A stretch of 64,000 nt of DNA, from contig JBBCGM010000001.1 of NCBI GenBank assembly GCA_037201605.1, positions 67,310-131,309 of the forward strand, written 5' to 3'. The translations under genes and the position numbers were made by a program. Positions within the stretch are counted from its first letter, which is position 1; each line of letters starts with the position of its first letter. This document shows, piece after piece, positions 15,973 to 44,764 of this stretch. Under the pieces are notes generated by a model. It worked only from the letters and a program-made list of their open reading frames with translations, made no database searches and was not told the origin of the DNA. The stretch is from Candidatus Moraniibacteriota bacterium. GTDB lineage: Bacteria; Patescibacteriota; Minisyncoccia; Moranbacterales; UBA1568.

Positions 15973-15975
15973 GGC

Positions 15976-17807: not shown

Positions 17808-17834
17808 ACTTTTCTTTTAGAGTGATACTGATAC

Positions 17835-18336
17835 TTAAGCGATTGCGCCTTCAGCAGCCGCGGGGCGGATTTTGAAGTACACTTCTTGCGTAAGGTGGTT
17901 GCCACCGACAATCTGAACGCCTTTCGTTCCACCATCGCCAGCTGCAGCGTCTACGGTGTACTGAGTCGACGTAAGGTCGAGTACAACGTTGTCGCCACAA
18001 AGAGCGTTGAGTTCCGCGAGCGTATCGACGCCTGAAGCAGTCTTTGCCTTCGCCTTCCAGATCACGCCAGGCAGGTTAGTCGGGGTAGACCATGATGAAG
18101 CCGTCAACTGAAGCAGTGTGTGTCGAGTCGGTTGCAGCGATACCTAAGACCTGAGTCGTGGTACCGATAACCGGTTCGCCATCAGCAAGCGGGATCGCGT
18201 ACGGAGAACCAGCAGCTTTGAGCTTGACGGGTTCGCCGGCGAGGATAGCCGTTGCGTTTGCTTCGGTTTGCCACTTCTCGGTCGGAAGGTTGAGATAACC
18301 AGCCGCCTTGTGGACTTTGATGTTTCCTTTAGCCAT
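17835..18336 (-). CDS. small Ala/Gly-rich head-associated protein (decoration candidate); two overlapping ORFs in different frames
   Basis: 17835..18107 and 18076..18336 overlap by 32 nt in different frames. Confidence 0.3.
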
Positions 18337-18382
18337 ATTTGTAGTTATGCATTCCCCGATTCAACGGGAACTGCGGGATAAT

Positions 18383-19051: not shown

Positions 19052-19119
19052 CCACGAAAAAGCGTTCAGAGCAAGGCCTTATCCCTCAACTCGATTGCGT
19101 GGTTGTTTGAATTGTGAAT

Positions 19120-19395
19120 CTACTTCCGAAGCGGCCCAATTAACGTCTGTATGCTCACTACATTGAGCTGTGCGAGCCTCAGGGCGTTCGCCATGGCCGC
19201 ATTGTCATCGGACTGGACGTCGAAGACGCTTGCTTTGATTTCTTCAAGTTTCTTCTCGAAGATCTCTTGGATTACGTACTTCTGAAAGCGCGGGCTATTC
19301 ACCAACGAATCGATGTAGCGGTCGCGGGCATTCGCCTCACGCTGCGCCTTTTCTTCCTTTTTTACGAGGCTATCATCCTGTCGAACGACTCTCAT
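19120..19395 (-). CDS. hypothetical phage protein
   Basis: 91-aa ORF between portal and scaffold. Confidence 0.35.
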   Translation of the reverse strand: MRVVRQDDSLVKKEEKAQREANARDRYIDSLVNSPRFQKYVIQEIFEKKLEEIKASVFDVQSDDNAAMANALRLAQLNVVSIQTLIGPLRK

Positions 19396-19397
19396 AC

Positions 19398-24457: not shown

Positions 24458-25300
24458 TTAAAAATTACCGTAATTACATTGGAAGCATTGCAAACCAAGG
24501 TCCCGCCATAGCTTGACCACCTGGTCTCGATCGTCGAATACGCAGTCCACATGATATTTTCCCCTGACATACTGATCGAACAATTCATTTTTCACGATGT
24601 AGTCCTTTCGCATATCTCCCTCTTGACGCATATACAAGTGTGTTGATTCAAAGAGTTTCAAATCAGGGAAATGTTCCGTAATCCATGTAGCCGTTTGATT
24701 GGCGCACACACTGTCTCGGCCGCTAAGAAAGATAAGGTGCTTACCCCTAGCGACTGTCGTAACGACATCAATAACCTTTTTAATCGGCTCATCCCCTCCA
24801 ACCTTTGCCCAGTCATAGGGACTCCGGTGTCTCCCTTCAGATATTGTCCCGTCAATATCACAAATCACCGCCCTAGGGAGATGCTCAGGATTATCATACT
24901 TCTGCGGAACAGAATACTGATTTGCCATACCACGAATCACTGCCTCGCCTACAGGATTAAGTCGCTTAGCGTCCCTTTCGATGCATTCCTCAATCGAGGT
25001 ATCGAATTCTTTTACTTCAACGAGAGACCCGTTCGCCTTAGCTATTTCCCGAAGGGTCTTCTCGTGCACGGGATTGAAGTTGGTGTCGTCGCAGATGATA
25101 TTCACTCTCTCCTGGAGAGCTAGACGAACAATGAAATCTCGTACCTTGAGAAGAAATTTCTCATTGGACTTTGTATGAACGCTGTTATCCAACATGGCCC
25201 GTAAGTCGTCCTTGTTGACCCTTTTGTATCCTTTCTGCTCCCTGGCCCAGGTTGTTTTGCCTGATCCCGGCAGTCCCTTGAGAATAATTAGCTTTGCCAT
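24458..25300 (-). CDS. pseT: polynucleotide kinase/3'-phosphatase, T4 PseT-like
   Basis: N-terminal P-loop ILKGLPGSGKTTWARE; C-terminal HAD motifs VICDIDGT ... LSGR ... FDDRDQVV; looks collinear with T4 Pnk along its length. Confidence 0.85.
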   Translation of the reverse strand: MAKLIILKGLPGSGKTTWAREQKGYKRVNKDDLRAMLDNSVHTKSNEKFLLKVRDFIVRLALQERVNIICDDTNFNPVHEKTLREIAKANGSLVEVKEFDTSIEECIERDAKRLNPVGEAVIRGMANQYSVPQKYDNPEHLPRAVICDIDGTISEGRHRSPYDWAKVGGDEPIKKVIDVVTTVARGKHLIFLSGRDSVCANQTATWITEHFPDLKLFESTHLYMRQEGDMRKDYIVKNELFDQYVRGKYHVDCVFDDRDQVVKLWRDLGLQCFQCNYGNF

Positions 25301-25926: not shown

Positions 25927-26166
25927 TCAGTTGGCGCTTTCTAGGTCTTCAGTTCCTGCGTCCAGGAGCTTTGTCTCCCGTTCGAGGAAGCGGAAACTTT
26001 TGAGCTTGTAGGACTCGAAGGCAAACAATGTTTCTTTGCGAAGCACAATACCCTCCTCAGGCACTTGCGCGGCGCACATGAAGCAGTCCTTTTCGGTGTA
26101 TTTCTTCTCTAATTTCTTTATAAATTCCTCATGCCAGTGATTTTCGGGATCAATCTCAGGGAACAA
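25927..26166 (-). CDS. small ORF overlapping the RNA ligase 3' end (possible frame-shifted C-terminal extension of the ligase)
   Basis: 49-nt overlap with 26118..27209 in a different frame. Confidence 0.3.
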   Translation of the reverse strand: MFPEIDPENHWHEEFIKKLEKKYTEKDCFMCAAQVPEEGIVLRKETLFAFESYKLKSFRFLERETKLLDAGTEDLESAN

Positions 26167-27209
26167 ATCCTTGGCTTTCCAGAAAAGAAAAGATGGACGT
26201 ACTCTAAACCGAAGCGCTCGCAGAATTCCTTGATCTGGTGAGAGGAGAGATCTAGTACATTGCCGTCTGCATTCGTGACAGTGATCCTGTAGACCTGGAT
26301 GCGCTTAGTTCCTTGAGTACAGCCGTAGTCGTAGCCAACCTGAATAGGAGCGCCGTCCTTGGTATATCCGAGAATCTCGCCGTATATGGTATAGCCCTTC
26401 GGGAGAAATTCGCGGAGTTCGTTTTTGGCCTCTTCCCAAAGATCGTAATTGTAGAAATGCGCTTTTTGAGCAGTTTCGAATTCATTCTTGACAACGCGGC
26501 GGGAACCATAAACATAGTCGTACTCGGTTTCCTGGATAGGCAAGAGCTTCCTAAGAAATTTCAGGAAGATATTCAGCTTCTTCTTTACCAATACATGCGC
26601 CACCCAAAAGGACGTACCGTGCGTTTTGTAACTAATAGAAATATGGTCTTCCGGCTTGATCAGAAAAGCGTTCCTGCGAAGTTGCTCAGTATCGACATGA
26701 AGGCGCACCTGGCCCTCAACAAGGCGAGAAATACGGGGCTTCTGGCCCATACGCAGTGCTCGTGGCTCACGAGCCTGAATCACGTATTTTTTGCAGAGCA
26801 ATATCTTTCCGACAGTGTCGAATTCACACCCGACATAGTCTATGAGACTCTCACCAACAAACGCCTCTACAGTACTGAGGGGAGCAAGATATCCCATTGA
26901 TTTTTGTCCGCGAAGCTTTACGGCCCGGACGCGACCGTTCTTGTCAAAATACCCTTTTACCGTTGTGTCTTTGTTGAGAAGCTGAGAACTGAAAGAGTCG
27001 GTCTCCTTTAGGAATTCGTAATTGATCTGGCACTCCAGAGGAAAGAAAACATAGAGATCTCCAATCTTGGCATCCTGGCCGGTAATAACGTCCTGGAAAT
27101 CCACAGTCGCTACCTGAAGACGATCTGCGTTATCGTGCTTGCGAAGAGCTTTAAGCTCTACAATTTTTGCTAAGTAATTGGGATTCGCGTCTTGAGAAGT
27201 AGAGATCAT
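26118..27209 (-). CDS. ATP-dependent RNA ligase (Rnl2/DraRnl-like) with N-terminal extension
   Basis: motif I YKTHGTSF (compare T4 Rnl2 KIHGTN) at about residue 195; same operon as Pnkp. Confidence 0.6.
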   Translation of the reverse strand: MISTSQDANPNYLAKIVELKALRKHDNADRLQVATVDFQDVITGQDAKIGDLYVFFPLECQINYEFLKETDSFSSQLLNKDTTVKGYFDKNGRVRAVKLRGQKSMGYLAPLSTVEAFVGESLIDYVGCEFDTVGKILLCKKYVIQAREPRALRMGQKPRISRLVEGQVRLHVDTEQLRRNAFLIKPEDHISISYKTHGTSFWVAHVLVKKKLNIFLKFLRKLLPIQETEYDYVYGSRRVVKNEFETAQKAHFYNYDLWEEAKNELREFLPKGYTIYGEILGYTKDGAPIQVGYDYGCTQGTKRIQVYRITVTNADGNVLDLSSHQIKEFCERFGLEYVHLFFSGKPRICSLRLIPKITGMRNL

Positions 27210-27321
27210 AAAGAGCTTTTATTATTGAGGGGTGAGATTAAAAAGTCTCTTAGTAGCTTTGATTATTTCGTAGCACTCTTGAGGCGTTTTCGTTTCTCCA
27301 ACGTGGATCTGACGACCGAAA

Positions 27322-27597
27322 TCATGGGCAAGGGTTCGATAGACTTTTTTCCGACTTCCGACTGTATTTTCCGCTTTTCCAAAGAGGATCTATCACGCCA
27401 TGTGCCTCTTTTCTTGCTTTCCGTAAATCTGCTTTCGCAAGAAACTGACCCTTGGGCTTCTTTGTATTTTGGTGACATCCAATATATGCATCGCAAGGGC
27501 GACAAAGCCAGATCATGTAAGAAGTTCCGTAGTTTCTGCCATAGACTTCCTTATTCTCTACCCATTCAGCTTGTTGTCCGCAATGATTGCACTGCAC
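27322..27597 (-). CDS. DUF3268-like zinc-finger phage protein (frame break in C-terminal part)
   Basis: CNHCGQQAEW...WLCRPCDAYIGCHQNTKKPKGQFLAKADLRKARKEAHGVIDPLWKSGKYSRK matches the DUF3268 pattern; overlapping ORF 27263..27505 in another frame. Confidence 0.5.
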   Translation of the reverse strand: MQCNHCGQQAEWVENKEVYGRNYGTSYMIWLCRPCDAYIGCHQNTKKPKGQFLAKADLRKARKEAHGVIDPLWKSGKYSRKSEKSLSNPCP

Positions 27598-27611
27598 ACT
27601 CTTTCTGTTCT

Positions 27612-27884
27612 TTATGGTTTATTATGTTCGATTGCTTTTTCTATATATTCCAAAAGGGATTCAGTGGTAATTGTTGGCTCATAGATTTGCCGCATGATGT
27701 GTTCGTTGAGAAGTTTCAACTCGAATATCCTTCCAGCCGCGTAGGCTTCTTTCAGTTTCACCTCTAGGAAATGCACCGCTTCCTCATAGGGAACATAAAG
27801 CATGGTTGAGCCTTCGTACCCCGTGGGCGTTCCCACGATAGGCTTGAATATCTCTCTAAATTCTTTCAATATTTGAGGGATCAT
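27612..27884 (-). CDS. hypothetical protein; ATG overlaps the HAD gene stop (ATGA)
   Basis: 90-aa ORF. Confidence 0.4.
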   Translation of the reverse strand: MIPQILKEFREIFKPIVGTPTGYEGSTMLYVPYEEAVHFLEVKLKEAYAAGRIFELKLLNEHIMRQIYEPTITTESLLEYIEKAIEHNKP

Positions 27885-28333
27885 AAATCTTCAATATGTA
27901 AAGCTTTGTCGTCTAAATAGAGATCGGCACCAGGTTTCATAGTCATACAGATTCCATGGAACGGATGTGATGCTTAATAAGCCAAGCGTGTGTAGCTGCG
28001 TACATTCTCGGTTGCCTAGCCGTTGTAGAGAACAATGTGAGCGCCATTTTGATAGAGGTCCGTAATCATTTTCACTATCGACTCATTCGGAATTGGTTCA
28101 GAGTCTTCCGGGCGACCCCAATATTCACCCAGACAGAGAGTGCCATCCATATCAACAGCTACTAATTGGTCGTTAGGATTCTTAAGAATTTTTTTGAGAT
28201 ATGATTTTTTCATTTTCTTCATTTCATTGGTTAGTATTTGTCGTTGAGGATGTCTTGCATGAACGGCCCGACTATGAGAAAAAATGCTCCCAGAGAAATT
28301 AGAGTTACTGCAAATGGTTTTATCCCAAAGCAT
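27881..28333 (-). CDS. HAD-family phosphatase (frame break near 28016)
   Basis: motif I VAVDMDGTL in 28016..28333. Manual translation of 27881..28015 continues with KPGADLYLDDKALHIEDL (HAD motif IV-like) in another frame. Confidence 0.45.
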
Positions 28334-29249
28334 CCTGCTCCAATGAGGATTGCCGATACCGAGGCCAAGAGAACGTAGTGTATCCTTTCATACTTTTTCT
28401 ATTTTCAAGACGGGATTGGTTATTTCGGATACTCGTCACTCTCTATCATTCCAACGAAAGGAGCTTCACGATATGGAGGTAGTCGATAATCAAATCGGTC
28501 GTTCCCTGGTTGCACTTTGGGTTTTTCTCCCGCCATTTTTCTAGGTGCTCTATCTGCGCCATCATTGCTCGGGTAGTGTCGTTTATGCTGAATGATATCT
28601 CTTCGTTCATAGATTTATTTCATTAACCTTGACCGCCAGTTCTTGGCGTAATCATCTGGGTCGGCAGGTCTCTATCTCCTCTGCCTTGTCCCGAAGCCAT
28701 TTAGCCATTCTCTTAACTTCCTTCTTCCCCTTTGGGAACTCTTTTACCGTCAGGACTGCGAGTTCTTCTTCCATAAAATTATTGCTTACTGTTTAATTCA
28801 AGACGGGAGAGGATTTCTTGGCGAGCCTCATTAAAGCCTTCCTTGAAATGATAGGTGGTGTCCTCAATGGTTTCGGTAAGATGAATTTCTTTCTCCTCAG
28901 GAACCAAGCTCTCTCCAAAGGCAAGGAGGAGGAGCGGAGGAAGGCTCTGATTTCCTCGTTGTAATCTCTTGCCATTTTCCCAGCGTCTCTCTCTATTTCA
29001 AAATCAGACTTACCAAGTGTCTCTCACTCATTCTTTTCTGAAAGGTATCAAACTCTTCCAAGATTTTCTCGATCATAGGGTTATGCATTCTTGCCACCAG
29101 GTTACTCCGCTGTAAAACTCCACTCCCAGCCGTGTTGTCCGCATTCCTTCCAGCCTCGGGGAGCATTCTCATAGGCATTCAATCCTGCAGTCAAATACAT
29201 CAGAAATACTGCCACAAGGAACCCAATAAGATATTTCATAAGCTTTTGG

Positions 29250-29432
29250 TTATCTATGGCTGTATCCACATCCATCGCACACTTGAGCTTGATATCCGTA
29301 ATAACCGTATTCTCGTAGAGAATAAGTCCGGCATCGGCATTTCGGACACTCGAATCGCTGAGCCCAAAAGATAACAATTGCAACGCTAAGGAAAAATAGA
29401 GCGACAAATAATAGGATTAAGAAATCGATCAT
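29250..29432 (-). CDS. small membrane protein with C-terminal CxxC...CxxC zinc ribbon
   Basis: TM helix plus CPKCRC...CDGCG; alternative overlapping 101-aa ORF 29102..29407. Confidence 0.3.
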   Translation of the reverse strand: MIDFLILLFVALFFLSVAIVIFWAQRFECPKCRCRTYSLREYGYYGYQAQVCDGCGYSHR

Positions 29433-29809
29433 ATTAATGCTTCATCAACAACTACATTCTTAGGAAACTTCGGAAGGATTGATTTTATTTCTTCAACCGA
29501 GAAGCCGGCAATTCCCGTTCCGATCGGCGTGAGATAGAATTTCTTCTTTGGGTAATATTCGGCATGCATCGCGAAGTGAAGGAGGAAAAGCTTGATAGTA
29601 TCCAGAGGTAATTTCTGGAATTTTTCATCAAGCGTAGGAATCGCATAGCTCTTTCCGCTCGGGCCATTCGCCTTTCCTTGGACAGCTCCAAACTTTTTCA
29701 GAGCCGTCCTTGCTGCTCCGCCAGCATGATCGCCAGCAAGATTTGACCCAAAGACGAAGACCTCGTTTCGGCCTATTCAGTAATGAATCCGTTTTCGTCT
29801 CGTGTCATA

Positions 29810-31039
29810 TTATTCGTTGCTATCGTCAGTCTCCACGAGTTTTCCATCTACCAGCTTGTACCACTGATCTGCCTTCACTTTCTTCCCATCTACCTTGACT
29901 GATTTGACACGAAGAGGCTTAGCGTCAGTGAAGGCCTCACCTTCTTTCCATTCAGCAAGAACAAGGAAGCAACCTTTAGAGGCCTTGGCCTTGGCTTTCC
30001 GTCCGACTGCTACGGCGATGGCATCATCGCCGCTCGTAGCCGAGTGGGCGCCGTATCCGCTCGTAGCCGAGTTGGCGCGGTTTCCGCTCGTAGCCGAGTG
30101 GGCGTAGGTTCCGCTCGTAGCCGAGTGGGCGTCGTCTCCGCTCGTAGCCGAGTGGGCGTCGTCTCCGCTCGTAGCCGAGTGGGCGTCGTCTCCGCTCGTA
30201 AGCCGAGTGGGCGCCGTATCCGCTCGTAGCCGAGTTGGCGCGGTTTCCGCTCGTAGCCGAGTGGGCGTAGGTTCCGCTCGTAGCCGAGTGGGCGCCGTAT
30301 CCGCTCGTAGCCGAGTTGGCGCGGTTTCCGCTCGTAGCCGAGTGGGCGTAGGTTCCGCTCGTAGCCGAGTTGGCGCGGTTTCCGCTCGTAGCCGAGTGGG
30401 CGTCGTCTCCGCTCGTAGCCGAGTGGGCGTAGGTTCCGCTCGTAGCCGAGTGGGCGTCGTCTCCGCTCGTAGCCGAGTGGGCGTCGTCTCCGCTCGTAGC
30501 CGAGTGGGCGTAGGTTCCGCTCGTAGCCGAGTTGGCGCGGTTTCCGCTCGGTAGCCGAGTTGGCGCGGTTTCCGCCTCGTAGCCGAGTGGGCGTCGTCTC
30601 CGCTCGTAGCCGAGTTTTTCTTTGAAACTTTAGTAGCTTTCTCAAAAATGAAAGCTACAGAAGCATCGATGAAAGCTTTCAGATCAAGCTTCGCACCGAT
30701 CCTGATATGATTCGTAACTGATTTACTTCCGTCTGACTCCACCTTTCCCAGAGCTTCAACTTCCGTAAACTCATTCCCATCTCTGAGAGGATAAAATCCT
30801 AGAACATCTAAAGGATTCTCGCAGAAATGAAAACCGGTGGAGCAGAGCTCGGGATCACTCTCTTTTTTGTATTCTTTCCCCTCTTCGTATTGAAAGCTGC
30901 GGCATTTTAGCCCCTTCTCAAAACCCTTGTATCCCTTGATAACTTTTACTGATTTCTTTTTAGCTGGCATATGGTTGTTTTTTGATGCTGTAACAATTAG
31001 ATAAATAATTCCGACGCCGGCGAGAATGAAATAGAGCAT
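29810..31039 (-). CDS. repeat protein: N-terminal domain, about 21 nine-residue repeats (SGDDAHSAT-type), basic C-terminal domain
   Basis: N-terminus KGYKGFEKGLKCRSFQYEEGKEYK...CSTGFHFCENPLDVLGFYP resembles the conserved N-domain of phage/Firmicute pentapeptide-like repeat proteins. The ORF passes through all three frames of the 27-bp repeat. Confidence 0.55.
   Translation of the reverse strand: MLYFILAGVGIIYLIVTASKNNHMPAKKKSVKVIKGYKGFEKGLKCRSFQYEEGKEYKKESDPELCSTGFHFCENPLDVLGFYPLRDGNEFTEVEALGKVESDGSKSVTNHIRIGAKLDLKAFIDASVAFIFEKATKVSKKNSATSGDDAHSATRRKPRQLGYRAETAPTRLRAEPTPTRLRAETTPTRLRAETTPTRLRAEPTPTRLRAETTPTRLRAETAPTRLRAEPTPTRLRAETAPTRLRADTAPTRLRAEPTPTRLRAETAPTRLRADTAPTRLTSGDDAHSATSGDDAHSATSGDDAHSATSGTYAHSATSGNRANSATSGYGAHSATSGDDAIAVAVGRKAKAKASKGCFLVLAEWKEGEAFTDAKPLRVKSVKVDGKKVKADQWYKLVDGKLVETDDSNE
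30030..30616. repeat. about 21 tandem copies of a 27-bp unit (tccgctcgtagccgagtgggcgtcgtc and variants); no stop codon in any of the three minus-strand frames
   Basis: direct reading; variant cores ccgtat, gcggtt, gtaggt, gtcgtc; single-base insertions at about 30197, 30546 and 30575. Confidence 0.85.
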
Positions 31040-31547
31040 AGATTATCGACTTATTTTTTTTATTCCGCCCGCTTTTATGAGTTCCAATCTTTTTATGTTT
31101 TCCTCCGCTTGCTCGTCGCTGACTACGGGAGGTGGTGATGGTTTTCTTCTCAACTTCTCTGCCGCTGCCTGATTTTCTTTTTGTCTTTCTCTTTCTTTTT
31201 TTTAATGTTTCTGTAAGTAATCCAAAATCTTTTTTTAAAGCATTCTCCAGAAAGGCTAGATAATTTTTATATATCCTGCCGCGTGATCTGCAGTAGTTCA
31301 CCAGATCGTCAGCTTTCCCTGGATCTGTCCTGGGGTTGCATTATATTTTTCATTCAGCTTTTCCAAGACCTCTTCCGGTATCTTCTCCAAAAATGAGAGA
31401 AGGGCTTCCGGTTTCTTTTCTCTCTTCTCTTCTGTTCTACTCTCTTCTCTTCTCTTCTCTTCTAGTGGGACTTTTTCGGATTTTGTCCGGAGTTTTCTCG
31501 CATATTCATCCGAGTACTCTTCTATCTTCGGGATGTATAAATGCCCT

Positions 31548-31958
31548 CTAATAAGCTGTTTTTTTGTCTATAAGTTTCAAATCAGCTAACCGGTCTAATA
31601 TCAGGTCTGTCTTTTTTTGGTCAAAATTGGAAAAATTTGTCAGAAAAAATTTCCATTCTTTATCCTTTTTTACGATATATTTCTGTCCCTGAGCGCCTAC
31701 AATCTCCAAACAGATCCAATAAAACCCGTATCCTTCGAGTCCAAATTCCCGGATAATCACCTGGAGTTTGAGGTTGATGTGGGAGTCAGTATAGTGCTTA
31801 AGCCATCGCATACTCTTGATAATCAGTATCCAGAAAATTAGGCTCGTTGCTGGGAAATGCGATGTGGACGCCAGTCCTTTCGTTAAGGTGCCTATTGAGA
31901 GTCTCGTAAATTTTATCGATCTCACCTGTATTGAGATCTTTCGTACTTTCCTTTCCAA
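31548..31958 (-). CDS. DnaD/replisome-organizer-like N-terminal domain protein (DUF4373-like); rest of the gene probably continues through frame breaks in 31040..31548
   Basis: IREFGLEGYGFYWICLEIVGAQGQKYIVKKDKEWKFF...LILDRLADLKLID; downstream AG-rich region contains homopolymer runs and frame-broken coding potential. Confidence 0.45.
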   Translation of the reverse strand: MERKVRKISIQVRSIKFTRLSIGTLTKGLASTSHFPATSLIFWILIIKSMRWLKHYTDSHINLKLQVIIREFGLEGYGFYWICLEIVGAQGQKYIVKKDKEWKFFLTNFSNFDQKKTDLILDRLADLKLIDKKTAY

Positions 31959-32299
31959 GCTGCGTCATTTGCACTGGCCGCCAAAGATACTCTTTTACAG
32001 TGTGTGCATTCCAGGGAATATCTATCTCCTGTCGGATGACTTTACGCATGTCAAAGCGCAGCTTCATTGAGAGCATCGGCTACGAGTTGGAGATAGACGT
32101 GTAAAGCTTTATTTTGCTGAGATGTCCGTGTGCGTTGTACTGGTTTCACCTCGAGTTCAACATCTTTCCCCTCAAACTTCGCCAAGGGCAGCATGTCCTC
32201 CTTAGAGAAAGGTTGGAATTTCCCCCCAACAATGCGGCCGCGAATATTCATAGGTTTTCTATTTTTACCTCCCAACGATTCTTTTCGTTTTTCAACCAA
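31798..32299 (-). CDS. ninB: NinB-like recombination protein (split over two overlapping ORFs)
   Basis: QRTRTSQQNKALHVYLQLVADAL matches the lambda NinB RSLDQNRKLWACLGDV motif. C-terminal ORF carries STKDLNTGEIDKIYETLNRHLNERTGV, matching STSRMRVGEFAELLELIQAFGTERGV. Confidence 0.55.
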
Positions 32300-32577
32300 C
32301 CATGCAGAACAACGATCCAGCCGGCTCTTCTCAGGATCGGGTAGTATGGAGACCCGAAGATCTTTGTACGCCGCGCCGGCACCCCCTTAATAGAGGTTGT
32401 TTGTACACCGACCGTTTCTCCGTCTTTTACACAAACAATGTCAATGATGCCGAAGAGATCTTGCCGGATTCTTGCAAAAGGATTCCAATGTTCGACTACC
32501 TGGCAGTGGTAGCCGGCCTTTCTCATGTAATCGAGACTTCTTTTTGTCGGAGTGACTTTTTTAGTTGTTGTTGCCAT
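32248..32577 (-). CDS. small nuclease-like protein (PD-(D/E)xK, VRR-NUC or Hjc-like resolvase candidate)
   Basis: QDLFGIIDIVCVKDGETVGVQTTS segment; next to NinB, as in lambdoid nin regions. Confidence 0.3.
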   Translation of the reverse strand: MATTTKKVTPTKRSLDYMRKAGYHCQVVEHWNPFARIRQDLFGIIDIVCVKDGETVGVQTTSIKGVPARRTKIFGSPYYPILRRAGWIVVLHGWLKNEKNRWEVKIENL

Positions 32578-32591
32578 TTCTTTTTTTGTGT

Positions 32592-32668
32592 GGATCCGCC
32601 CGGAATCGAACCGGGTTCTCAGGGTTGCACGTTGGCCTTTACCCTGATCGAAGCCAATTCAGACCCAG
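32592..32668 (-). tRNA. lone tRNA 3' fragment (T-arm CCCGG-TTCGATT-CCGGG plus acceptor 3' strand CGGATCC-A) with no complementary 5' acceptor strand nearby
   Basis: manual reverse complement; preceded by an atypical 6-bp stem with a 15-nt loop; directly upstream of the 32577 ORF. Confidence 0.4.
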
Positions 32669-32675
32669 GAACTTC

Positions 32676-32810
32676 TTTTTAGAGATTGATAGGGAAGACT
32701 CACGCTTGTTGACAACGTCGTTATGAGAGGTTGCCCTTGCCGCTTTTTATTTCCGGTGTATACCCCAGAGAGTCTTCGGACGTACAAGCTCCCCTATCAA
32801 TCTCTAAAAT
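32676..32810 (-). ncRNA. structured non-coding element: perfect 18-19 bp inverted repeat enclosing about 97 nt
   Basis: ttttagagattgataggg (32677-32694) and ccctatcaatctctaaaa (32792-32809). Confidence 0.35.
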
Positions 32811-32823
32811 TGAAATGAACTTA

Positions 32824-32892
32824 GGGGGACGCTCTAGCCACTGAGCTATAGGAGCCGAAGCTCCTAGTCGGATTCGAACCGACGACCTCCCC
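32824..32892 (-). tRNA. circularly permuted tRNA-like unit P2: 3' half (GGGGA-GGTC-GTCGG-TTCGAAT-CCGAC-TAGGAGC), TTCG, then 5' half (GCTCCTA-TA-GCTC-AGTGGCTA-GAGC-G-TCCCC)
   Basis: acceptor 7/7 and anticodon stem 5/5 complementary between halves; canonical D-arm and T-loop; halves in reversed order with UUCG closing the acceptor stem. Confidence 0.45.
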
Positions 32893-32962
32893 GTGGGCTT
32901 GCTCAACTACTGAGCTACACAGCCCGAGAGCTGTGATGGGATTTGCACCCACGTCCTCGCCC
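32893..32962 (-). tRNA. circularly permuted tRNA-like unit P1, degenerate: 3' half (GGGCG-AGGAC-GTGGG-TGCAAAT-CCCAT-CACAGCT), CTCG, then 5' half (GGCTGTG-TA-GCTC-AGTAGTT-GAGC-A-AGCCC)
   Basis: acceptor 7/7 with one G-U; anticodon stem 4/5; non-canonical D loop (no GG) and T loop (TGCAAAT). Confidence 0.35.
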
Positions 32963-33559
32963 CCCTTAAATTCACTTCTGAAATGAACTAGTGGTGGCTG
33001 TTCTTACGATTTCTCAGTGTAATTAGCACCGATAGTCGTATGGAGATTTCCTAGCCTCAGAAATCCGTTCCCATTTCCATCCGCATAAGCATCAGGGGGG
33101 GTACGAGCAGCCAAGCCATCACTAGATCACTTCCTGAAATATCCGAGAGTGAGGAGGCAGGATTCTTGCTGAGAGCTTTTGACCCCGCAACAGACTATCC
33201 GGGCAACTGTTTCCTGCGACCTGCGAGAGCTTTTGGATATGGGATGTTACTTGCATTTACCTCCATATTTCTGACCTAGCCCGACTTCCCCGTCTCGATT
33301 GCAAGCGACTCCTCACTCTCGGATACCTCCTTATAAAACCTCTTTCTCTTCTTTAAACCTGACATCGAATTCTCTCAATGCTTCATCAGCCCAACGCGCT
33401 CCACCAAATTTACTCGTGCTATTTGATGCCTGAACGTAAGCAACATATACCTGTATCCATAAATCCTCTCTTCTTGCTTGATGTTCTGTTTCTCATAAAC
33501 GCTTTTAATGAGTTACTTCTTTTCGGCTTAGGCCTATAAAGACCCAAGACCGGAAAGAA

Positions 33560-34166
33560 CTAAAACGGGACGTCTTCGATCCGAATATCATCCTCATCAT
33601 CGAGATTGATAGTAGGGATCTCTTCATCCGGAACATGAGCAGAGGGAGCTTTGGCTGGCTGCTCAAAAGAAGCTTCCTTCTTTTCCTTCACAGTCGCCTT
33701 CTCCCTTTGCTTCGTCCGAGAGCGGATCTGCTTTGGATTTAGCCGGCATGAAGGAGTCAATGTTCGAGAAAACCTTCCCCTCTTTACCTTCCTTGTTCTT
33801 CACCACTACGCGGCACTGGTAGCCGATAAGCTTATTGATGAAGTCCGATCCGAACATGGCTTCCTCCTCCTGGGTCAGCTCACGCTTGATAATGGCCTCA
33901 GTGATCTCATAGAGAGCGTTCTTGCCATTCTTTCCGATATAGAGGAAGGTTGGGACGAAATTGCGCCAAATTGAGCGGCCGCGGAATTCGCCATCGTCAA
34001 GAACAACGAACTGGAATGAGAGGACATTCTCCATCACGCTTTTGTCGTTGTACGAAGGCTTCTCCTGCATTTCGATATCCAGGAGTTCTACCTGATACAC
34101 GTCTTCTGGCAATGGGTCGAAGGTCTTACCTTCTTTGACTGGGAAACTGATGTTGCTTGGTAGCAT
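33560..34166 (-). CDS. phage ssDNA-binding-type protein with SSB-like acidic C-terminal tail (two ORFs joined by a frame break)
   Basis: C-terminus NLDDEDDIRIEDVPF resembles the SSB DDDIPF tail; ORFs 33663..34166 and 33560..33760 overlap. Confidence 0.4.
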
Positions 34167-34187: not shown

Positions 34188-34641
34188 TTACTTGATTTGC
34201 AAATTTTGATGTTCTTCAATGCGTGCTCCACTCACCTCTTCTCCGTTCTCCAAAGCCTCTTTTATGGCCTTTTTATCAGGCGTTCTTGAGGTCTTGGTAA
34301 CGACAAAACGTTCTGGAAGCAACGCAATATTGTCTATTTCTACCGTCTTTGATTCTCGGAACGAGAGCTTAGCTATGTCTGTTTCGACCTTCTTGATGCC
34401 GTTCCGTTGCATCGAGTACGAGACGTAACTTCTTAGGTTCTCAGCTTTGTTTTTGAAGCTTGCCTGAAGCTTTTTGTAGACGCTCGATCTCAGAGCCTAT
34501 GGCCTCAGAAGAGACCTCCAGGTTCCGGACGAAGCGCACGATGTTGTCCACCTTCTCGCTCATTTGACCTTCTACCGCATCCAGATACTCCACGAGAGCG
34601 GGGGTTATCACCCGCCATTTCGTCGAGCTTGGCGTAGGCAT
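34188..34641 (-). CDS. siphovirus Gp157-like protein (split over two ORFs)
   Basis: C-terminal EIDNIALLPERFVVTKTSRTPDKKAIKEALENGEEVSGARIEE matches the Gp157 family tail; N-terminal coiled coil in 34441..34641. Confidence 0.5.
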
Positions 34642-34814
34642 CGGTCAATTCATAAGTTTTAGTCCCTGATTCATAAGCTTTTTTCTGCTGCGATTACTTC
34701 AAGAAGAAAACTGTACATATTCCCTGAAGCCGAAGAATACTAATGGAATCATGCACAGAACGAAGAGGATGATGGCGTAGGGAGTAAGTTCTGCTTTCAT
34801 ATTTTTAGAGTGAC

Positions 34815-36341: not shown

Positions 36342-37242
36342 CTACCATTGTACGACACCCGCGTTTCTATTTCTTCTGCTCCCTCTTTGAGACCAGGCCG
36401 GTAAAGGCGTCAAAGTGGATCTGACTCTCAGGAATAGCAAGGCCCGAGGAGCAAAGCTTTCATGGGCCTCATTAAAGGATGGTGAGCCCACGACATAGTA
36501 CACGCTGCCGATGGGATTGTCCACGTGGCGGTCCAAAAGCGCAGCGTCGATAAATCCGCGCTCATCAAGCTCTCCTTGGCTCGGTGCCGTCTCGTGATCC
36601 AAAACGTCAACATAGTGAAAATTGGCTAAAGAGAGGCCTCGCAACTCAGCTCCGAAAGAAATATCCTCACGGCTCCGGTTGGCATAGAGAAGCGTGAAGC
36701 TCTCGGCACTACCGGTAAGGGTTCGCTTCCTTCAAGATGCTCCGCACTGGAGTAATACCAATCCCACCCACGATAAAGACAAGAGGTCTGGTCTCCGTAG
36801 CTTCCAGTACGAATTTGCCGATAACCGGAGTGATAGAGGCTTCCTCGCCAGGCTGCATAGCCCACAAAGCCTTCTTAAACGGGCTTTGGGTATTACGCAG
36901 GGCGAAACCCAATCGTTCTTCATGCGGGGCAGAGCAAATCGAAAGCGAGCGTACCGGGCCCTGCGGATCGGGCTCGGAAAGATTGGGCAAACGCAGCACC
37001 GTATACTGACCCGCCCTAAACGTAAAATCAGCCGGCTTTTCAAACCAGAACACGGATGTGTCACGGGCTATTTCTTCACGGGCAAACAAGGCGGATGTTT
37101 TGCATAGAGAGTAATGGGCTATTAGTCTATTGTAAAAAGCGCTTTTCAGACTGTCAAAGTTTCTCAGCATCCTGGAAAACATCTTCGAACGCCTCCCACT
37201 CCAGAAGCATGGTAATGAGGCGTGCCAGCTTTTCGCTGTCAT
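36342..37242 (-). CDS. ferredoxin-NADP reductase-like FAD/NAD-binding oxidoreductase (fragmented into 3 ORFs)
   Basis: FTFRAGQYTVLRL ... SICSAP ... LVFIVGGIGITP; C-terminal NAD-domain pieces in 36342..36865. Confidence 0.5.
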
Positions 37243-38244
37243 GGCGAATGAAAGAGCGGTAGCGGGGCTACCGCATCAACCTTGCTTTTCACCACCTGCT
37301 TACGGGAGAGCAGATCAGTTGCAATGACTTTGGCGCGCTTGGCCGTTTTCGGACGCTCTCCGGAGAGGACAAGTTCGCTGTCTTCCTTTCGATAGCGGGC
37401 GAGAAGTGTCGCACTGGGACGGCGCTTATTGAATGTGACGAAATCGATGCGTTCGCCTCCCAAGAAGCGATTAATCTCGGCTACATAATCCCAAAGTGCA
37501 AACCCATCCGTGTGCCCCCGCTTGTTCACGAGGTTACAATTGTAGACTACTGTAGCTCGCGAGCGTCGGATAGCTTCCGGAATGCCTGGCACCAAGAGAT
37601 TGGGGCAGAATGCTGCAATAATGATTGCCGGGCCCGATGACAATCAAATCGGCCTCGCGGATCTTCTGCAGGGCATTCGGATTGGCTACCGGTTTTGGCT
37701 CCAGGAAAGTGCGGCGGATACCCGTGCGGCCAAGCCTCTTATCGGTATTAATAGCATGTTCACCGCGCAGCTTAGTACCATTTTTGAGCGTCACGCAGAG
37801 CTCCGTATCCGAACTCGTCACCGGCAGCACTTCGCCGCGGACGTTCAGAAGAGTGGCAGCCTCATGCACGGCTGAAAGAAAATCACCTGTGATCTTTTCA
37901 AGAGCGGAAAGCAAGAGGTTGCCGAAACTGTGGCCGGAGAGGCCGCCATGCTCAAATCGGTATGTCATGAGATCGCGAAGCGTTTCCGAGGAATCGGAAA
38001 GGGCTACCAGGCACTGGCGCACGTCACCCGGAGGCAGAACGCCCAGCTCGTCGCGCAAGATGCCGGTACTGCCGCCATCGTCTGCCATAGAGACAATAGC
38101 CGAGAGCTCGGACTGGATACTGCTTGAGGCCCGAAAGAGCGTAAAGCTGCCTGTCCCGCCGCCGATAGTAACAATCTTTTTCATCAGTCGGAGCGCTGGG
38201 AATCGAACCCAGACTAGATGGTCCCAAACCACCCGTACTACCAC
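37239..38244 (-). CDS. yvcK: YvcK/CofD-family protein (gluconeogenesis-factor-like), split in two
   Basis: KKIVTIGGGTGSFTLFRA ... IVSMADDGGSTGILRDELGVLPPGDVRQCLVALS; C-half ADLIVIGPG ... LLVPGIPEAI in the second ORF. Confidence 0.6.
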
Positions 38245-38258
38245 TATACGACGCTCCG
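38188..38258 (-). tRNA. tRNA-Pro (anticodon UGG, G37)
   Basis: manual fold: acceptor CGGAGCG/CGCTCCG, anticodon arm GGTGG-TTTGGGA-CCATC, T-arm CTGGG-TTCGATT-CCCAG. Confidence 0.7.
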
Positions 38259-38529
38259 ATGTACTTCTTCCAAAGAACTTTTTCCCTCTCGTGCGACCAT
38301 TCCATTTAAGACGAGATGGTCTCTCCGGAGCCGCCCGCAGGACTACCCCTCTACGATGCTCCGATGTACTTTTTCTAAAAAATCTGCCTGCCTAAACCCA
38401 TTTCGAGGCAAACTTTCCGCAGTCTACCCAAAAGAGGGCTTCTGGTCAATTCTCAGGTCAGATCCCCCTGAGAAAGGCAGAACCCGGGATTATCCCGGGT
38501 TACGCCCCTATCTTTGTTTTCCCCAAAAA

Positions 38530-38820
38530 CTATTTTACCGCTTCTTTAAGAGTCTTGCCAGCCGTAAACTTCGGCACGGTCATAGCAGGAATGGTGATTT
38601 TGGCTTTGGTCTGAGGATTGATGCCCTCGCGAGCCGCGCGATTGGATACCTTGAAGGTTCCGAAGCCGGTGAGAGTCACTTTGTTCCCGCGGCGAAGTTC
38701 GTTGGTTACTTCGTCGATCATGCACTCAATGACGGCCTCGATATCGCGTTTCGAGAGCTCAGTCTTTTCCACGATATTGTGGACGAGCGTTTCCTTATTG
38801 ATGTTTTGCATGCATCTCAC
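38530..38820 (-). CDS. hup: DNA-binding protein HU (start probably the Met at about 38811)
   Basis: MQNINKETLVHNIVEKTELSKRDIEAVIECMIDEV ... GFGTFKVSNRAAREGINPQT. Confidence 0.8.
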   Translation of the reverse strand: MRCMQNINKETLVHNIVEKTELSKRDIEAVIECMIDEVTNELRRGNKVTLTGFGTFKVSNRAAREGINPQTKAKITIPAMTVPKFTAGKTLKEAVK

Positions 38821-38926
38821 CTGCCTTTCTAGTTTTAGCCTTCCTAGCTCTTGCCAGAAAGCAAGGTATTCCTCCTGGGCGCCATTTTAAGCCATTTTAT
38901 CCGGAAATGCAAGACAGAATCCCTTG

Positions 38927-40455
38927 CTAGCGGGCATATTCGATGGCTCGGGTCTCGCGAAAGACATTCACCTTGATTTCGCCCGGGTACTTCAATTCTT
39001 CTTCAATCCGCTTGGCCACCTCGCGGGCAAGCTTCATGGCACCGTAGTCGTCCGTCTTTTCGGGATTGACGAAGATGCGCACCTCGCGGCCGGCCTGGAT
39101 GGCATAGGACTTCTCCACCTCGGGGAAGGTATTGATAAGCGCTTCCAGCTCCTGCAAACGCTTGATGTACTTCTCAGCCGTTTCCTTGCGTGCGCCGGGG
39201 CGAGCCGCCGAGAGCGCGTCGGCTGCCGTTACGATAAAGGCTTCGATGGTTTCGTGGGGATATTCGTCGTGGTGGCACTTCATGCCGTCAATCACTGCCT
39301 GGCCCACGCCGAATTTTTCCAGGATGCGCATGCCGATTTTCACGTGCGTACCCTCGATTTCATGATCAACTGCCTTGCCGATGTCGTGCAGAAGCCCTGC
39401 CTTCTTGGCAACAGCGACGTCGGCACCGAGTTCTGCTGCTAAAGCACCAGCCAGAAACGAGACTTCGAGCGAGTGAAGAAGGACGTTTTGCTTGTAGCTA
39501 TAGCGATAGCGCAGACGCCCGAGGATGTAGAGAAGTTTGGGATGCAAGCCCGCAATCCCCGCATCAAACGCGGCCGCTTCGCCAGCTTCTTTAATCTTCT
39601 GGTCAATTTCTCTCTTCGCTTCTTCAACGGCTTCCTCAATGCGGGCCGGATGGATGCGACCGTCCGAAATCAGCTTTTCAAGGGCGATCCTGGCAATCTC
39701 GCGGCGCACCGGATCAAAGGCGGAGATAATGACCGACTCAGGCGTATCGTCGACGATCAGCTCCACGCCCGTCTCTTTTTCGAGCGAGCGGATATTGCGT
39801 CCTTCCTTGCCGATGATTTTCCCCTTCACCTCGTCCGAGGGAATAGCGACCGTAGTCGTAGTAAACTCCGAAACATGCGAACGCGAATACTTCTGGATCA
39901 CCGTTGCCATGACATCGAGCGAGCGGCGTTCCAGGGTTTCATGGGCATCATGCTCGAGTTTCGTCATGCGCTTCACCAGCGCTTCCTTGCTCTCATCCTC
40001 CACCAAGCGGAAGAGTTCGGTCTGGGCAGCATCACGCGAAAAACTGGAGAGCTTCTCGAGCCTCTCCATCTCTTCCTGCTTCAAGGCCTCCGTTTCGGTT
40101 TCAAGCGTCCCGAATCTGGTCAGCTTTGGAAAGCAGCCGTTTTTTCTCGTTTTCCGTTCTGTTGGTAAAGGGACTCGGCCTGCTCTTCGCGCTTGTCGAT
40201 ACGCTCCTCTTTGACGTGGAGCTTTTCCTCGCGCAGTTTTTCCTCTTTTTTGGCGTTCTCAAGAAGAAGAGCTGCCTCTTCTTTGGCCTTTTTTTCAGTG
40301 TCTTCGGCTTTCTTTTTCGCCTCTTCGAGCAGGCTCGCTACCTGACCCTCAGCCGTTGAGAGCTTTTTTTTGGCAATGTTCTGACGGACGAAATATCCTA
40401 CCGTGAGGCCGACAATAAGGCTGAAAAGGGCGAAACCAAGTGTTTGCAGATCCAT
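38927..40455 (-). CDS. rny: ribonuclease Y (N-terminal TM/coiled-coil piece 40120..40455 in another frame)
   Basis: KH domain IIGKEGRNIRSLEKETGVELIVDD; HD domain HSLEVSFLAGALAAELGADVAVAKKAGLLHDIGKA; N-terminal TM plus KKAEEEA coiled coil. Confidence 0.75.
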
Positions 40456-40680
40456 AGGTGTAATCTGCCTGAATCCAGAGCCAGGGAAGAGAGAGAAAAA
40501 CGCTCAAAAAGGGCGCGGCGCGCGTCCCGGGAAACCATCTCGCTTTCAAGGAAATTCTGGAACATGCAGGAGATAAGGTAATTTATTCTGTACTTGCATG
40601 ATACGCCGAGAGGACCGCTTCTGTCAAAAACAAGCCAAAAATGCTATCATAAGCGCGTATTCGTTTCGTAAAAACCAAAA

Positions 40681-42250: not shown

Positions 42251-42264
42251 TCTGTTGCTGAGAA

Positions 42265-42327
42265 AAAGAAAAAGCCCGGCGCAACAGTTACGTTGCTCCG
42301 GGCTTTTAGGTTTTGCGCGTTGCGCGA
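42265..42327. terminator. 63-bp terminator module, copy 1 (bidirectional hairpin gcccggcgcaac-agttac-gttgctccgggc flanked by A/T runs); exact duplicate at 43343..43405
   Basis: exact 63-bp repeat read from both copies; ends gpmI on the plus strand and the 42331..43149 gene on the minus strand. Confidence 0.6.
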
Positions 42328-42330
42328 AAA

Positions 42331-43149: not shown

Positions 43150-43155
43150 CTTAAC

Positions 43156-43184
43156 ATTATACTCCTAAATTATGTTTTTGTCAA
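43156..43184 (-). promoter_or_regulatory. consensus sigma70-type promoter TTGACA-N17-TATAAT on the minus strand
   Basis: minus-strand read GCTATTGACAAAAACATAATTTAGGAGTATAATG. Confidence 0.5.
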
Positions 43185-43342
43185 TAGCAATAGGGTAAGC
43201 CTATTAAAAGCCCTAATTAAAGCAAAAAGTGCCTTTTCAAGCGGGGATCGGCTTGTCTTAGGGATTGATGCTTGAAAAATCCGCAAAGACAGCTTATTTG
43301 TTGAGCAACTAGTGATACCCCCTTGCGAGCAAGTTCAAGATT

Positions 43343-43405: not shown

Positions 43406-43406
43406 G

Positions 43407-44757: not shown

Positions 44758-44764
44758 AAGCGTT

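What the first reader, a model, noticed from the sequence alone, without database searches (positions are those of the whole stretch)
29810..31039. About 21 copies of a 27-bp tandem repeat with all three frames open, embedded in a phage gene; three +1 insertions shift the ORF between frames and back
Unit tccgctcgtagccgagtgggcgtcgtc encodes SGDDAHSAT, ERRRRPLGY or AETTPTRLR depending on frame, and none of the frames has a stop. The 409-aa ORF starts and ends in the SGDDAHSAT frame. The terminal units diverge as TYAH, NRAN and YGAH. The ORF spends most of the array in the AETTPTRLR frame because of single-base insertions at about 30575 and 30546 (frame 1 to 2 to 3) and about 30197 (back to frame 1). 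The N-terminal domain resembles the conserved head of phage/Firmicute pentapeptide-like repeat proteins. Such arrays evolve quickly by unit gain or loss. A frame-tolerant repeat could give phase or antigenic variation of a surface or injected protein. Alternatively, the indels are homopolymer sequencing errors.
Basis: seen in the sequence. Interest (0 to 1): 0.6.

Follow-up and report, generated by a model that had tools for sequence, protein, structure and literature searches.

The report
Sequencing-error frameshifts in phage repeat gene
The repeat array is real and belongs to an ordinary phage gene of a widespread, uncharacterised family (DUF7666 head plus nine-residue repeats), but the three single-base insertions that make the reading frame hop are almost certainly errors in a low-coverage long-read metagenome contig, not biology.

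Summary
Window 30030-30615 (minus strand) carries 22 units of 27 nt inside the 409-aa ORF 29810-31039. Three units are 28 nt because one base is doubled (GG 30575/6, CC 30550/1, TT 30200/1).

Removing those three bases gives a clean 22 x SATSGxxA[H/N] array. That is the architecture of more than 500 database homologs: Pfam DUF7666 head, nonapeptide array, conserved C-terminal domain (PHROG 4433/27197).

The frame-hopping is best explained as an assembly artefact:
- The window comes from a PacBio HiFi hifiasm-meta co-assembly of a deadwood metagenome (contig JBBCBH010010996.1, a Moranbacteria/Patescibacteria genome with a phage-like block).
- Conserved genes around the array carry the same kind of lesion. 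I count at least 12 frameshifts in about 5.4 kb of reference-covered coding sequence between 29.4 and 40.5 kb (RNase Y, CofD/YvcK, an FNR-like gene, Gp157 and others). One is a compensated -1/+1 pair in CofD.
- A separate assembly of one sample's reads has CCC where the window has an ORF-breaking CCCC (18082).
- None of 78 related arrays in viral contigs shows a register slip.
- "All three frames open" is expected by chance: 61% of shuffled units, 28 of 78 homologous arrays.

The finding is ordinary and of low interest.

The parts
29810..31039 (-). ORF as it stands in the sequence (409 aa). It is a DUF7666-family phage gene whose middle is read in the wrong frames.
   Evidence: It is identical to P0001 on GenBank contig JBBCBH010010996.1.
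29810..30970 (-). Probable true coding region. It starts at Met24 (MPAKKKSVKVIKGYKGF...), because homologs start 2-10 residues before the IKGYKGF motif. It would be 385 aa once the three extra bases are removed. The start codon is inferred.
   Evidence: Homolog N-termini; tblastn alignments begin at or below 30982.
30665..30940 (-). DUF7666 domain (aa 34-125 of the ORF). It carries the family's invariant K, C, C, G-H and P residues.
   Evidence: Pfam PF24703: 106 bits against a cut-off of 27, E 1e-30. Invariant columns.
30030..30615 (-). Tandem array of 22 units of 27 nt. In the family frame it encodes SATSG[DD/NR/TY/YG]A[H/N].
30575..30576 (-). Extra base 1: GAG>GAGG in unit 2 (frame 1 to frame 2).
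   Evidence: this unit is 28 nt
30550..30551 (-). Extra base 2: TAC>TACC in unit 3 (frame 2 to frame 3).
30200..30201 (-). Extra base 3: GCT>GCTT in unit 16 (back to frame 1).
29828..30097 (-). Conserved C-terminal domain (AI.A.GRKAKAKA..G.W/FIVLAEW...VDGKKIKAD.WYKL..GKFVE). It follows the last, conserved NRAN-YGAH units.
   Evidence: phrog_27197, E 1e-17; consensus
29429..29808 (-). Downstream gene for an A1S_2505-family phage non-structural protein (N-terminal domain). Its ATG (29806-29808) is in a different frame from the domain, so one base is probably missing near 29775-29780.
   Evidence: NCBIfam NF049995, E 3e-37; frames. This domain is fused to DUF7666 in P0015, L076, L015 and L068.
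37169..38190 (-). Control gene: host CofD/YvcK-like gene broken into three frames. It has an extra C in CCCC at 37602-37605, a further shift near 37260, and a compensated -1/+1 pair at about 38135 and 38110.
38930..40503 (-). Control gene: host RNase Y, with its N-terminal ~110 aa in another frame. There is a shift near 40165, and probably a second near 40105.
   Evidence: Twenty-two Moranbacteria-type ortholog loci encode it as one ORF.
36370..37200 (-). Control gene: host FNR-like oxidoreductase read in frames -2/-3/-2 (two shifts, near 36720 and 36445).
34188..34650 (-). Control gene: phage Gp157 split over at least two frames.
   Evidence: Pfam PF05565 profile positions 26-79 in one frame and 68-162 in another
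17835..18336 (-). Control gene: a 166-aa ORF, intact in a separate assembly of the same project's reads, is split here (86 + 90 aa) by CCC>CCCC at about 18082.

Best explanation
The locus is an ordinary phage gene of the DUF7666 family. It has an N-terminal DUF7666 domain (probably metal-binding through Cys/His), a 22-unit nonapeptide array SATSGxxA[H/N], and a conserved C-terminal domain.

The three +1 'insertions' are single-base over-calls in the consensus of a poorly supported stretch of a PacBio HiFi / hifiasm-meta metagenome contig. They sum to +3, and this GC-rich unit happens to lack stop codons in all three frames. The mis-called gene therefore still looks like one long ORF that hops between frames. 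No frame switching happens in the cell.

Shown: the array, the three extra bases, family membership, the contig's origin, and the dense frameshifts in neighbouring conserved genes.

Inferred: that the extra bases are absent from the real DNA (the reads were not available); that the repeats form a beta-solenoid-like rod; and that the protein is a non-structural accessory protein.
For: 1. Removing the three doubled bases restores a perfect 22-unit array in the family frame. The units now read out of frame are nucleotide-identical to in-frame units, for example units 5, 6 and 8 equal units 17 and 18, and units 10-12 equal 13-15 and 19-21.

2. The search returned 550 homologs with E <= 0.001. All 18 non-self homologs inspected carry in-frame nonapeptide repeats with 8-30 copies, SATSGxxA[HN]-type in the closer relatives. 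Only the window's own protein has AETTPTRLR.

3. Across 78 related arrays (about 885 units) in IMG/VR contigs there was no register slip. The same test flags the window.

4. The source is the co-assembly JBBCBH of four deadwood samples: HiFi reads above 99% accuracy, 16 Gb in total, a complex community, and only 41% of reads mapping to contigs.

5. Neighbouring conserved genes carry the same lesions. CofD matches Pfam profile positions 1-193 in one frame and 187-289 in another. After deleting one C it aligns continuously to PDB 2hzb residues 4-282. Its N-terminal motif LSGLKQYPV sits in an alternative frame between two compensating indels. RNase Y, the FNR-like gene, Gp157 and a gene at 32058 are each split across frames relative to intact orthologs. 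RecG, ABC-transporter and AAA genes are in pieces at the other contig end.

6. The local rate is at least 12 indels in about 5.4 kb of reference-covered coding sequence (29.4-40.5 kb), or about 2.2 per kb. That predicts 1.3 indels in the 586-nt array. The Poisson probability of three or more is about 0.14 (my own arithmetic).

7. A Logan assembly of run SRR28211700 matches window 3803-21123 except for one base. It has CCC where the window has CCCC, and the window version breaks a 166-aa ORF.

8. Frame openness is at chance level.
Against: - No reads were inspected, so absence of the extra bases from the real DNA is inferred.
- HiFi assemblies are usually accurate, and 3 indels in 0.59 kb is about twice the already high local rate.
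- Other parts of the same contig (window 1-27 kb and 40.8-50.4 kb) have long intact ORFs, so the error-rich stretch has to be local (for example single-read support). That is plausible but not shown.
- The Logan contig comes from the same reads, so it is independent in method only.
- All three events are insertions and restore the frame. For three random +/-1 events this has a prior of about 1/4.
Confidence: 0.86

Rival explanations
1. The three insertions are real mutations in the sequenced phage or prophage. The gene would then be a recently inactivated or scrambled allele (a pseudogene) in a decaying element. It looks intact only because the repeat has no stops in any frame.
For: - The bases are in the deposited sequence.
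- Base doubling is also what replication slippage produces.
- The phage-like block sits beside host genes and could be a decaying prophage.
- Several phage early genes nearby are also broken.
Against: - The same density of frameshifts hits conserved host genes (RNase Y, CofD/YvcK) that are intact in all 22 related Moranbacteria-type loci. It also includes a compensated pair inside CofD. Decay of a prophage does not explain this.
- Each insertion is a singleton in an otherwise homogenised array.
- No frameshifted array was found among 78 relatives.
- One contig indel is contradicted by a read-based assembly.
Confidence: 0.09
2. The repeat is a frame-tolerant array used for phase or antigenic variation. 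Indels move parts of the array between three translatable frames and so produce different proteins.
For: - All three sense frames are open and the frame is restored after 14 units.
- Copy number varies widely among homologs, 4 to 26 copies.
Against: - Openness is expected in 61% of shuffles and is absent from 50 of 78 homologous arrays.
- The unit length is a multiple of 3, and there is no mutable homopolymer or short-unit tract at the insertion sites.
- No database protein mixes the frames.
- The variable positions follow the family frame even in the out-of-frame part.
- The gene is non-structural. Homologs have no signal peptide or virion-module context.
Confidence: 0.03
3. The DNA is correct and the ribosome restores the family frame by programmed +1 frameshifting at the three sites.
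For: None beyond the fact that the family frame would be recovered.
Against: - Three independent sites would be needed, each in a different sequence context (GAGGCGG, TACCGAG, GCTTACG).
- By my reading, none has a recognisable +1 shift site (no slow or stop codon, no upstream SD-like stimulator).
- The feature is absent from all relatives.
- Neighbouring genes need the same 'repair'.
Confidence: 0.01

Closest known systems
DUF7666 (Pfam PF24703) / PHROG 4433 nonapeptide-repeat proteins of phages and prophages, e.g. P0002-P0012, Paenibacillus polymyxa P0098
   Same: Same three-part architecture. After frame correction it is 45-61% identical over more than 90% of its length. It has the same SATSGxxA[HN] unit, the same conserved last units (NRAN-YGAH) and the same C-terminal domain. 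It also has the same genomic setting among early or accessory phage genes.
   Different: As deposited, 14 of its 22 units are read out of frame. With 22 units it is at the long end of the family range. The host is a Patescibacteria (Moranbacteria-like) genome.
Indel (homopolymer-type) consensus errors in low-coverage long-read metagenome assemblies
   Same: Single-base length errors that double or extend a base run, cluster in a stretch of a contig, and break conserved genes. That residual HiFi errors are mostly indels is established knowledge, not tested here.
   Different: Here three errors fall in a stop-free repeat and sum to +3, so no ORF break betrays them.
Contingency loci (phase-variable genes with simple sequence repeats, as in Neisseria or Haemophilus)
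   Same: A tandem repeat inside a coding region, with copy-number differences among relatives.
   Different: Contingency repeats have units of 1-7 nt that are not multiples of 3, or homopolymer tracts, so slippage toggles the frame. A 27-nt unit cannot do this, and the shifts here come from isolated base doublings.
[quoted passage not shown]
   Same: Tandem nine-residue repeats with x-A-T-x-x-D-x-A-[N/H]. It is the top, though non-significant, PDB sequence hit of the family profile (E 0.12; motif).
   Different: The beta-layer consensus [aliphatic]-A-T-K-[polar]-[DE] is not met: the window has S for the aliphatic residue, S for K, and a variable sixth position. There are no flanking heptad coiled coils. 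The AlphaFold monomer model gives 5-residue strands every 9 residues instead. This is a lead only.

Membership tests
DUF7666 nonapeptide-repeat phage proteins (Pfam PF24703 / PHROG 4433) | N-terminal DUF7666 domain above Pfam's gathering score | tested here: met
   106 bits against a cut-off of 27, profile positions 1-94 of 95
DUF7666 nonapeptide-repeat phage proteins (Pfam PF24703 / PHROG 4433) | Invariant K, C, C, G-x-H, P residues of the head domain | tested here: met
   Invariant columns K9, C17, C37, G40, H42 and P47 in the 62-sequence alignment. The window has KGYKGF..KCRSF..LCSTGFHFCENP.
DUF7666 nonapeptide-repeat phage proteins (Pfam PF24703 / PHROG 4433) | Uninterrupted in-frame array of 9-residue units (SATSGxxA[HN]-type in the closer relatives) | tested here: inconclusive
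   Not met in the sequence as deposited (only 8 of 22 units are in frame). Met exactly after deleting three bases.
DUF7666 nonapeptide-repeat phage proteins (Pfam PF24703 / PHROG 4433) | Conserved C-terminal domain after the array | tested here: met
   phrog_27197, E 1e-17, aa 314-403; consensus
Phase-variable contingency locus | Repeat unit or tract whose copy-number change alters the reading frame or promoter spacing | tested here: not met
   The unit is 27 nt, or 9 codons. The insertions are at 1-nt runs.
Phase-variable contingency locus | Length heterogeneity among reads or cells | not testable with these tools
Pentapeptide repeat proteins (Pfam PF00805 and relatives) | Tandem A(D/N)LXX pentapeptides recognised by the Pfam models | tested here: not met
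   No pentapeptide family hit at E <= 1. The period is 9 residues. The QnrB1 fold match has E = 1, not significant.
RTX beta-roll nonapeptide repeats | GGxGxDxUx calcium-binding motif | tested here: not met
   The unit is SATSGDDAH. There is no HemolysinCabind hit. RTX block V fold matches have E of 2.4 or more.
Nonad alpha/beta coiled coils (Tcar0761 type) | Beta-layer motif [aliphatic]-A-T-K-[polar]-[DE] in nonad spacing, flanked by heptad coiled coil, forming a trimer | tested here: inconclusive
   Only A-T and the spacing match. Profile-to-PDB E is 0.12. Oligomeric state was not tested. The monomer model is beta-rich.
Programmed ribosomal frameshift site | Conserved shift-prone heptamer or slow codon with a stimulator, conserved in relatives | tested here: not met
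   The three sites have different contexts. No relative has an interrupted register.

The most novel reading that the evidence does not exclude
The three extra bases are real and tolerated. A phage of a Patescibacteria host would then carry a repeat protein whose stop-free 27-nt unit lets indels move blocks of the array between three translatable frames, from an acidic SGDDAHSAT beta-strand repeat to a basic, proline-rich AETTPTRLR repeat. That would be a way of diversifying a protein by frame rather than by copy number.
Probability: 0.03. Interest if true: 0.55.

Novelty: new member of a known kind. Interest (0 to 1): 0.1.

Why it matters
It matters mainly as a caution. Stop-free GC-rich repeats can hide consensus indels, because the ORF survives and the protein looks like an exotic frame-hopping chimera. 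The deposited 409-aa protein (P0001) is already in public protein collections in this scrambled form.

Three points about the real biology are modest but worth recording:
- DUF7666 nonapeptide-repeat proteins are widespread in phages (550 hits, the array repeatedly breaking short-read assemblies) and uncharacterised. Their copy number varies widely.
- They are recurrently linked or fused to the A1S_2505 non-structural domain.
- This copy sits in a phage-like block next to Moranbacteria (CPR) genes.

Tried and rejected
- Megablast of window 27000-34000 against GenBank phages: no match.
I used pre-translated frames for Pfam instead.
- Foldseek of the AlphaFold model (P0003 with 62 homologs, pLDDT 86) against the PDB: nothing with E < 1, only beta-solenoid-like noise such as QnrB1, RTX and CAP.
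- Family profile against PDB sequences: nothing significant.
- PADLOC: no hit for the DUF7666 protein or the A1S_2505 domain.
- Pfam: no hit for the A1S_2505-like gene. NCBIfam identified it.
- The NCBIfam hits of the repeat to YdhT and SclB are far below their cut-offs. I disregarded them as repeat or low-complexity matches.
- Paper search for DUF7666 / PF24703: nothing relevant.
- TRF 'indel' percentages in five related arrays (L004, L038, L046, L061, L063) turned out to be alignment noise. Anchor spacings are all multiples of 27.
- Apparent off-register anchors in eight arrays were anchors that occur twice per unit.
- L044, with a stop in every frame, is a contig-end mess.
- I suspected the ORFs at 42.3-44.2 kb were a broken ClpX. 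By eye, the three-frame translation did not resemble ClpX, and no family search was run on it, so I dropped the idea.

Full report
**1. The observation**

The minus strand of window 29810-31039 is a 409-aa ORF. TRF reports a period-27 array at 30030-30615: 21.6 copies, 89% matches, score 858, also describable as 7.2 copies of 81 nt.

Splitting the array at the invariant CTCGGCT gives 22 units. Nineteen are 27 nt and three are 28 nt. Each 28-nt unit differs from the consensus by one doubled base:
- unit 2: GAG>GAGG (window 30576/30575)
- unit 3: TAC>TACC (30551/30550)
- unit 16: GCT>GCTT (30201/30200)

Deleting the three bases gives 22 clean nonapeptides, SATSG[DD/NR/TY/YG]A[H/N].

The units that are currently out of frame are base-for-base identical to in-frame units. 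Nothing in them has adapted to the other frame.

**2. Is "all three frames open" special?**

No.
- 61% of shuffles of the unit are stop-free in all three sense frames.
- 28% of random synonymous encodings of SATSGDDAH are stop-free in all three sense frames.
- Among 78 homologous arrays from viral contigs only 28 are open in three frames. The closest relative (L004) has 18 stops in one frame.

Frame openness is a by-product of GC-rich codons, not a family trait.

**3. What the gene is**

- The head (aa 34-125) is Pfam DUF7666 (106 bits, cut-off 27).
- The whole corrected protein matches PHROG 4433, and its tail matches PHROG 27197. Both are of unknown function.
- A search of the large protein collection returned 550 relatives.
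- All 18 non-self homologs read have the same plan: a head, then 8-30 in-frame nonapeptides (SATSGxxA[HN] in the closer relatives, LASSG/NTG-type in more distant ones), then conserved last units NRAN-YGAH, then a C-terminal domain ...GRKAKAKA..G.WIVLAEW...VDGKKIKAD.WYKL..GKFVE. Three of these (P0032, P0055, P0085) have a different head.
- Only the window's own entry (P0001) contains AETTPTRLR.
- An AlphaFold model of the homolog P0003 with 62 aligned relatives is confident (pLDDT 86). It shows a five-residue strand every nine residues through the array, between a beta-rich head and a small beta-rich C-terminal domain.
- No solved structure resembles the model significantly. The best, non-significant hits are beta-solenoids such as QnrB1 and RTX block V.
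- The family profile's best PDB sequence hit is the nonad MATKDDIAN alpha/beta coiled coil of Tcar0761, at E 0.12, also non-significant. I keep this as a lead only, because the beta-layer consensus is not met.

The genomic setting is non-structural:
- In the window the gene lies between Gp157, DUF669 and Lin1244-like early genes on one side and an RNA ligase/PNKP pair on the other.
- In three relatives it lies between replication, recombination or methylase genes and the terminase, or in a plasmid region with unrelated accessory genes.
- The gene immediately downstream encodes the A1S_2505 phage non-structural domain (NF049995, E 3e-37).
- That domain is fused to DUF7666 proteins elsewhere: P0015, L076, L015, L068.

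Nothing supports a surface or injected protein.

**4. Where the sequence comes from**

- The exact ORF occurs once in public assemblies, on GenBank contig JBBCBH010010996.1 (235.6 kb) of assembly GCA_037975565.1.
[quoted passage not shown] The reads are above 99% accuracy and total 16.1 Gb. The community is complex, and only 41% of reads map to contigs.
- RNase Y is 85-89% identical to Candidatus Moranbacteria/Moraniibacteriota MAGs. The order NusA-PPase-trigger factor-ClpP...iPGM-RNase Y-HU-CofD-FNR is shared with them.
- The contig is therefore a Patescibacteria genome fragment. The phage-like block (window about 1-36.3 kb) abuts the host genes.

**5. The same lesions are all around the array**

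- *CofD/YvcK-like gene.*
  - It matches Pfam profile positions 1-193 in one frame and 187-289 in the next.
  - Removing one C from CCCC (37602-37605) gives a protein that aligns without a break to PDB 2hzb residues 4-282.
  - Near its N-terminus the conserved motif (LLRGLKTFPV in 2hzb) is encoded as LSGLKQYPV in an alternative frame. The annotated frame reads FRASSSIQS there. This is a -1/+1 pair about 25 nt apart, the same "shift and return" seen in the repeat.
  - Orthologs also show a third frame at its C-terminus.
- *RNase Y.* The first ~110 residues are in another frame, with probably two shifts.
- *FNR-like gene.* It runs through frames -2/-3/-2.
- *Gp157.* Pfam profile positions 26-79 are in one frame and 68-162 in another.
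- *Gene near 32058.* It changes frame relative to a phage homolog.
- *A1S_2505 gene.* Its ATG is out of frame with its domain.
- *Other end of the contig (window 50.5-64 kb).* RecG, ABC-transporter and AAA genes are called in pieces, and one more split is confirmed against orthologs at about 62570.

All 22 related Moranbacteria-type loci encode RNase Y as a single ORF, and CofD and the FNR-like gene are single ORFs wherever those loci include them. Real pseudogenes are therefore very unlikely.

Counting only sequence for which I had a reference, there are at least 12 indels in about 5.4 kb between 29.4 and 40.5 kb, or about 2.2 per kb. That rate predicts 1.3 events in the 586-nt array. Three or more then has a Poisson probability of about 0.14, so the array is not an outlier in its neighbourhood. 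This arithmetic is my own, from the calls cited above.

**6. A direct contradiction of the contig by the reads**

A Logan assembly of run SRR28211700, one of the four HiFi read sets, matches window 3803-21123 at 17,320 of 17,321 positions. The single difference is CCC in Logan against CCCC in the window at 18082. The Logan version has an intact 166-aa ORF upstream of the capsid gene. The window version splits it into 86 and 90 aa. This is the same type of error, one extra base in a run, as in CofD and in the repeat.

**7. Base rate in relatives**

A register walk over 78 related period-27 arrays (about 885 units) in IMG/VR contigs found no slip. The same test flags the window. Real frameshifted arrays are therefore rare at best.

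**8. Verdict**

The array and the three extra bases are in the sequence as described. The frame-hopping ORF is most likely a consensus artefact in a poorly supported stretch of a long-read metagenome contig (confidence about 0.86). It is made inconspicuous because the unit has no stops in any frame and the three errors sum to +3.

The alternatives and their weights:
- A real, recently scrambled allele: about 0.09.
- A functional frame-tolerant or phase-variable array: about 0.03.
- Programmed frameshifting: about 0.01.

Only the reads can settle this. The decisive checks are listed under next steps.

The underlying gene is a new member of a known but uncharacterised phage family. Its mechanism is unknown. 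My inference is a non-structural accessory protein with a metal-binding head and a beta-solenoid-like repeat rod of variable length, working together with an A1S_2505-domain partner. Interest is low.

Noticed in passing
window 50482/50483: The window wraps around the contig. Window 50482 is record position 1 and window 50483 is record position 235604 of JBBCBH010010996.1. Either the contig was treated as circular or its ends were joined, so the junction is not necessarily real sequence continuity.
   Followed up: partly
window ~1-36300 versus 36370-50482: A phage-like block lies directly next to syntenic Moranbacteria (Patescibacteria/CPR) housekeeping genes. The block includes a capsid, a terminase fragment, tail proteins, RNA ligase, PNKP, Gp157, DUF669 and an SLT-like lysozyme. 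It is a candidate prophage of a CPR bacterium. Attachment sites and the left end were not determined, and a chimeric assembly is not excluded.
   Followed up: partly
window 24458-25300 and 26118-27209 (-): Adjacent PNKP-like (KTI12/AAA_33/HAD_PNKP) and RNA ligase (phrog_968, E 2e-54) genes. This looks like a T4-like RNA repair pair, usually a counter to host anticodon nucleases.
   Followed up: no
window 29429-29808 (-); P0015, L076, L015, L068: An A1S_2505-family non-structural domain gene sits immediately downstream of the DUF7666 gene. In several other phages it is fused to the N-terminus of DUF7666 proteins, a Rosetta-stone link suggesting that the two work together.
   Followed up: partly
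P0032, P0055, P0085 (homologs): The same nonapeptide array and C-terminal domain occur behind a different, ~250-aa head (motif GFLMRHCVASYYGK, PcfJ-like from memory) instead of DUF7666. The repeat-plus-tail module is shuffled between heads.
   Followed up: no
L044 (IMGVR_UViG_3300020045_005498) 10001-11604: Two DUF7666 genes lie in tandem. The first carries GDGNT pentapeptide repeats and the second LAASGDSSK nonapeptides, so repeat period varies within the family.
   Followed up: no
IMG/VR loci L008, L010, L011, L014, L020, L028, L031 and others: Many short-read viral contigs end inside this family's array. One contig has both ends in it (L009 and L014). The repeat is a common assembly breakpoint, and probably the artificial 'end' of circular phage genomes.
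   Followed up: no
window 42265-42327 and 43343-43405: A perfect 63-bp direct repeat flanks a ~1-kb gene. Each copy follows an ORF end, so it may be a duplicated terminator or intergenic element. There is also an 83%-identical ~175-bp repeat at 48117-48288 and 49991-50165.
   Followed up: no
window 38187-38258 (-): A tRNA-Pro(TGG) lies immediately upstream of the CofD-like gene. The same order is seen in related Moranbacteria loci.
   Followed up: no
window 30971-31039 (-): The first 23 residues of the 409-aa ORF (MLYFILAGVGIIYLIVTASKNNH, which looks like a transmembrane segment) have no counterpart in homologs. This is probably an over-extended start, but a real N-terminal anchor is not excluded.
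   Followed up: partly
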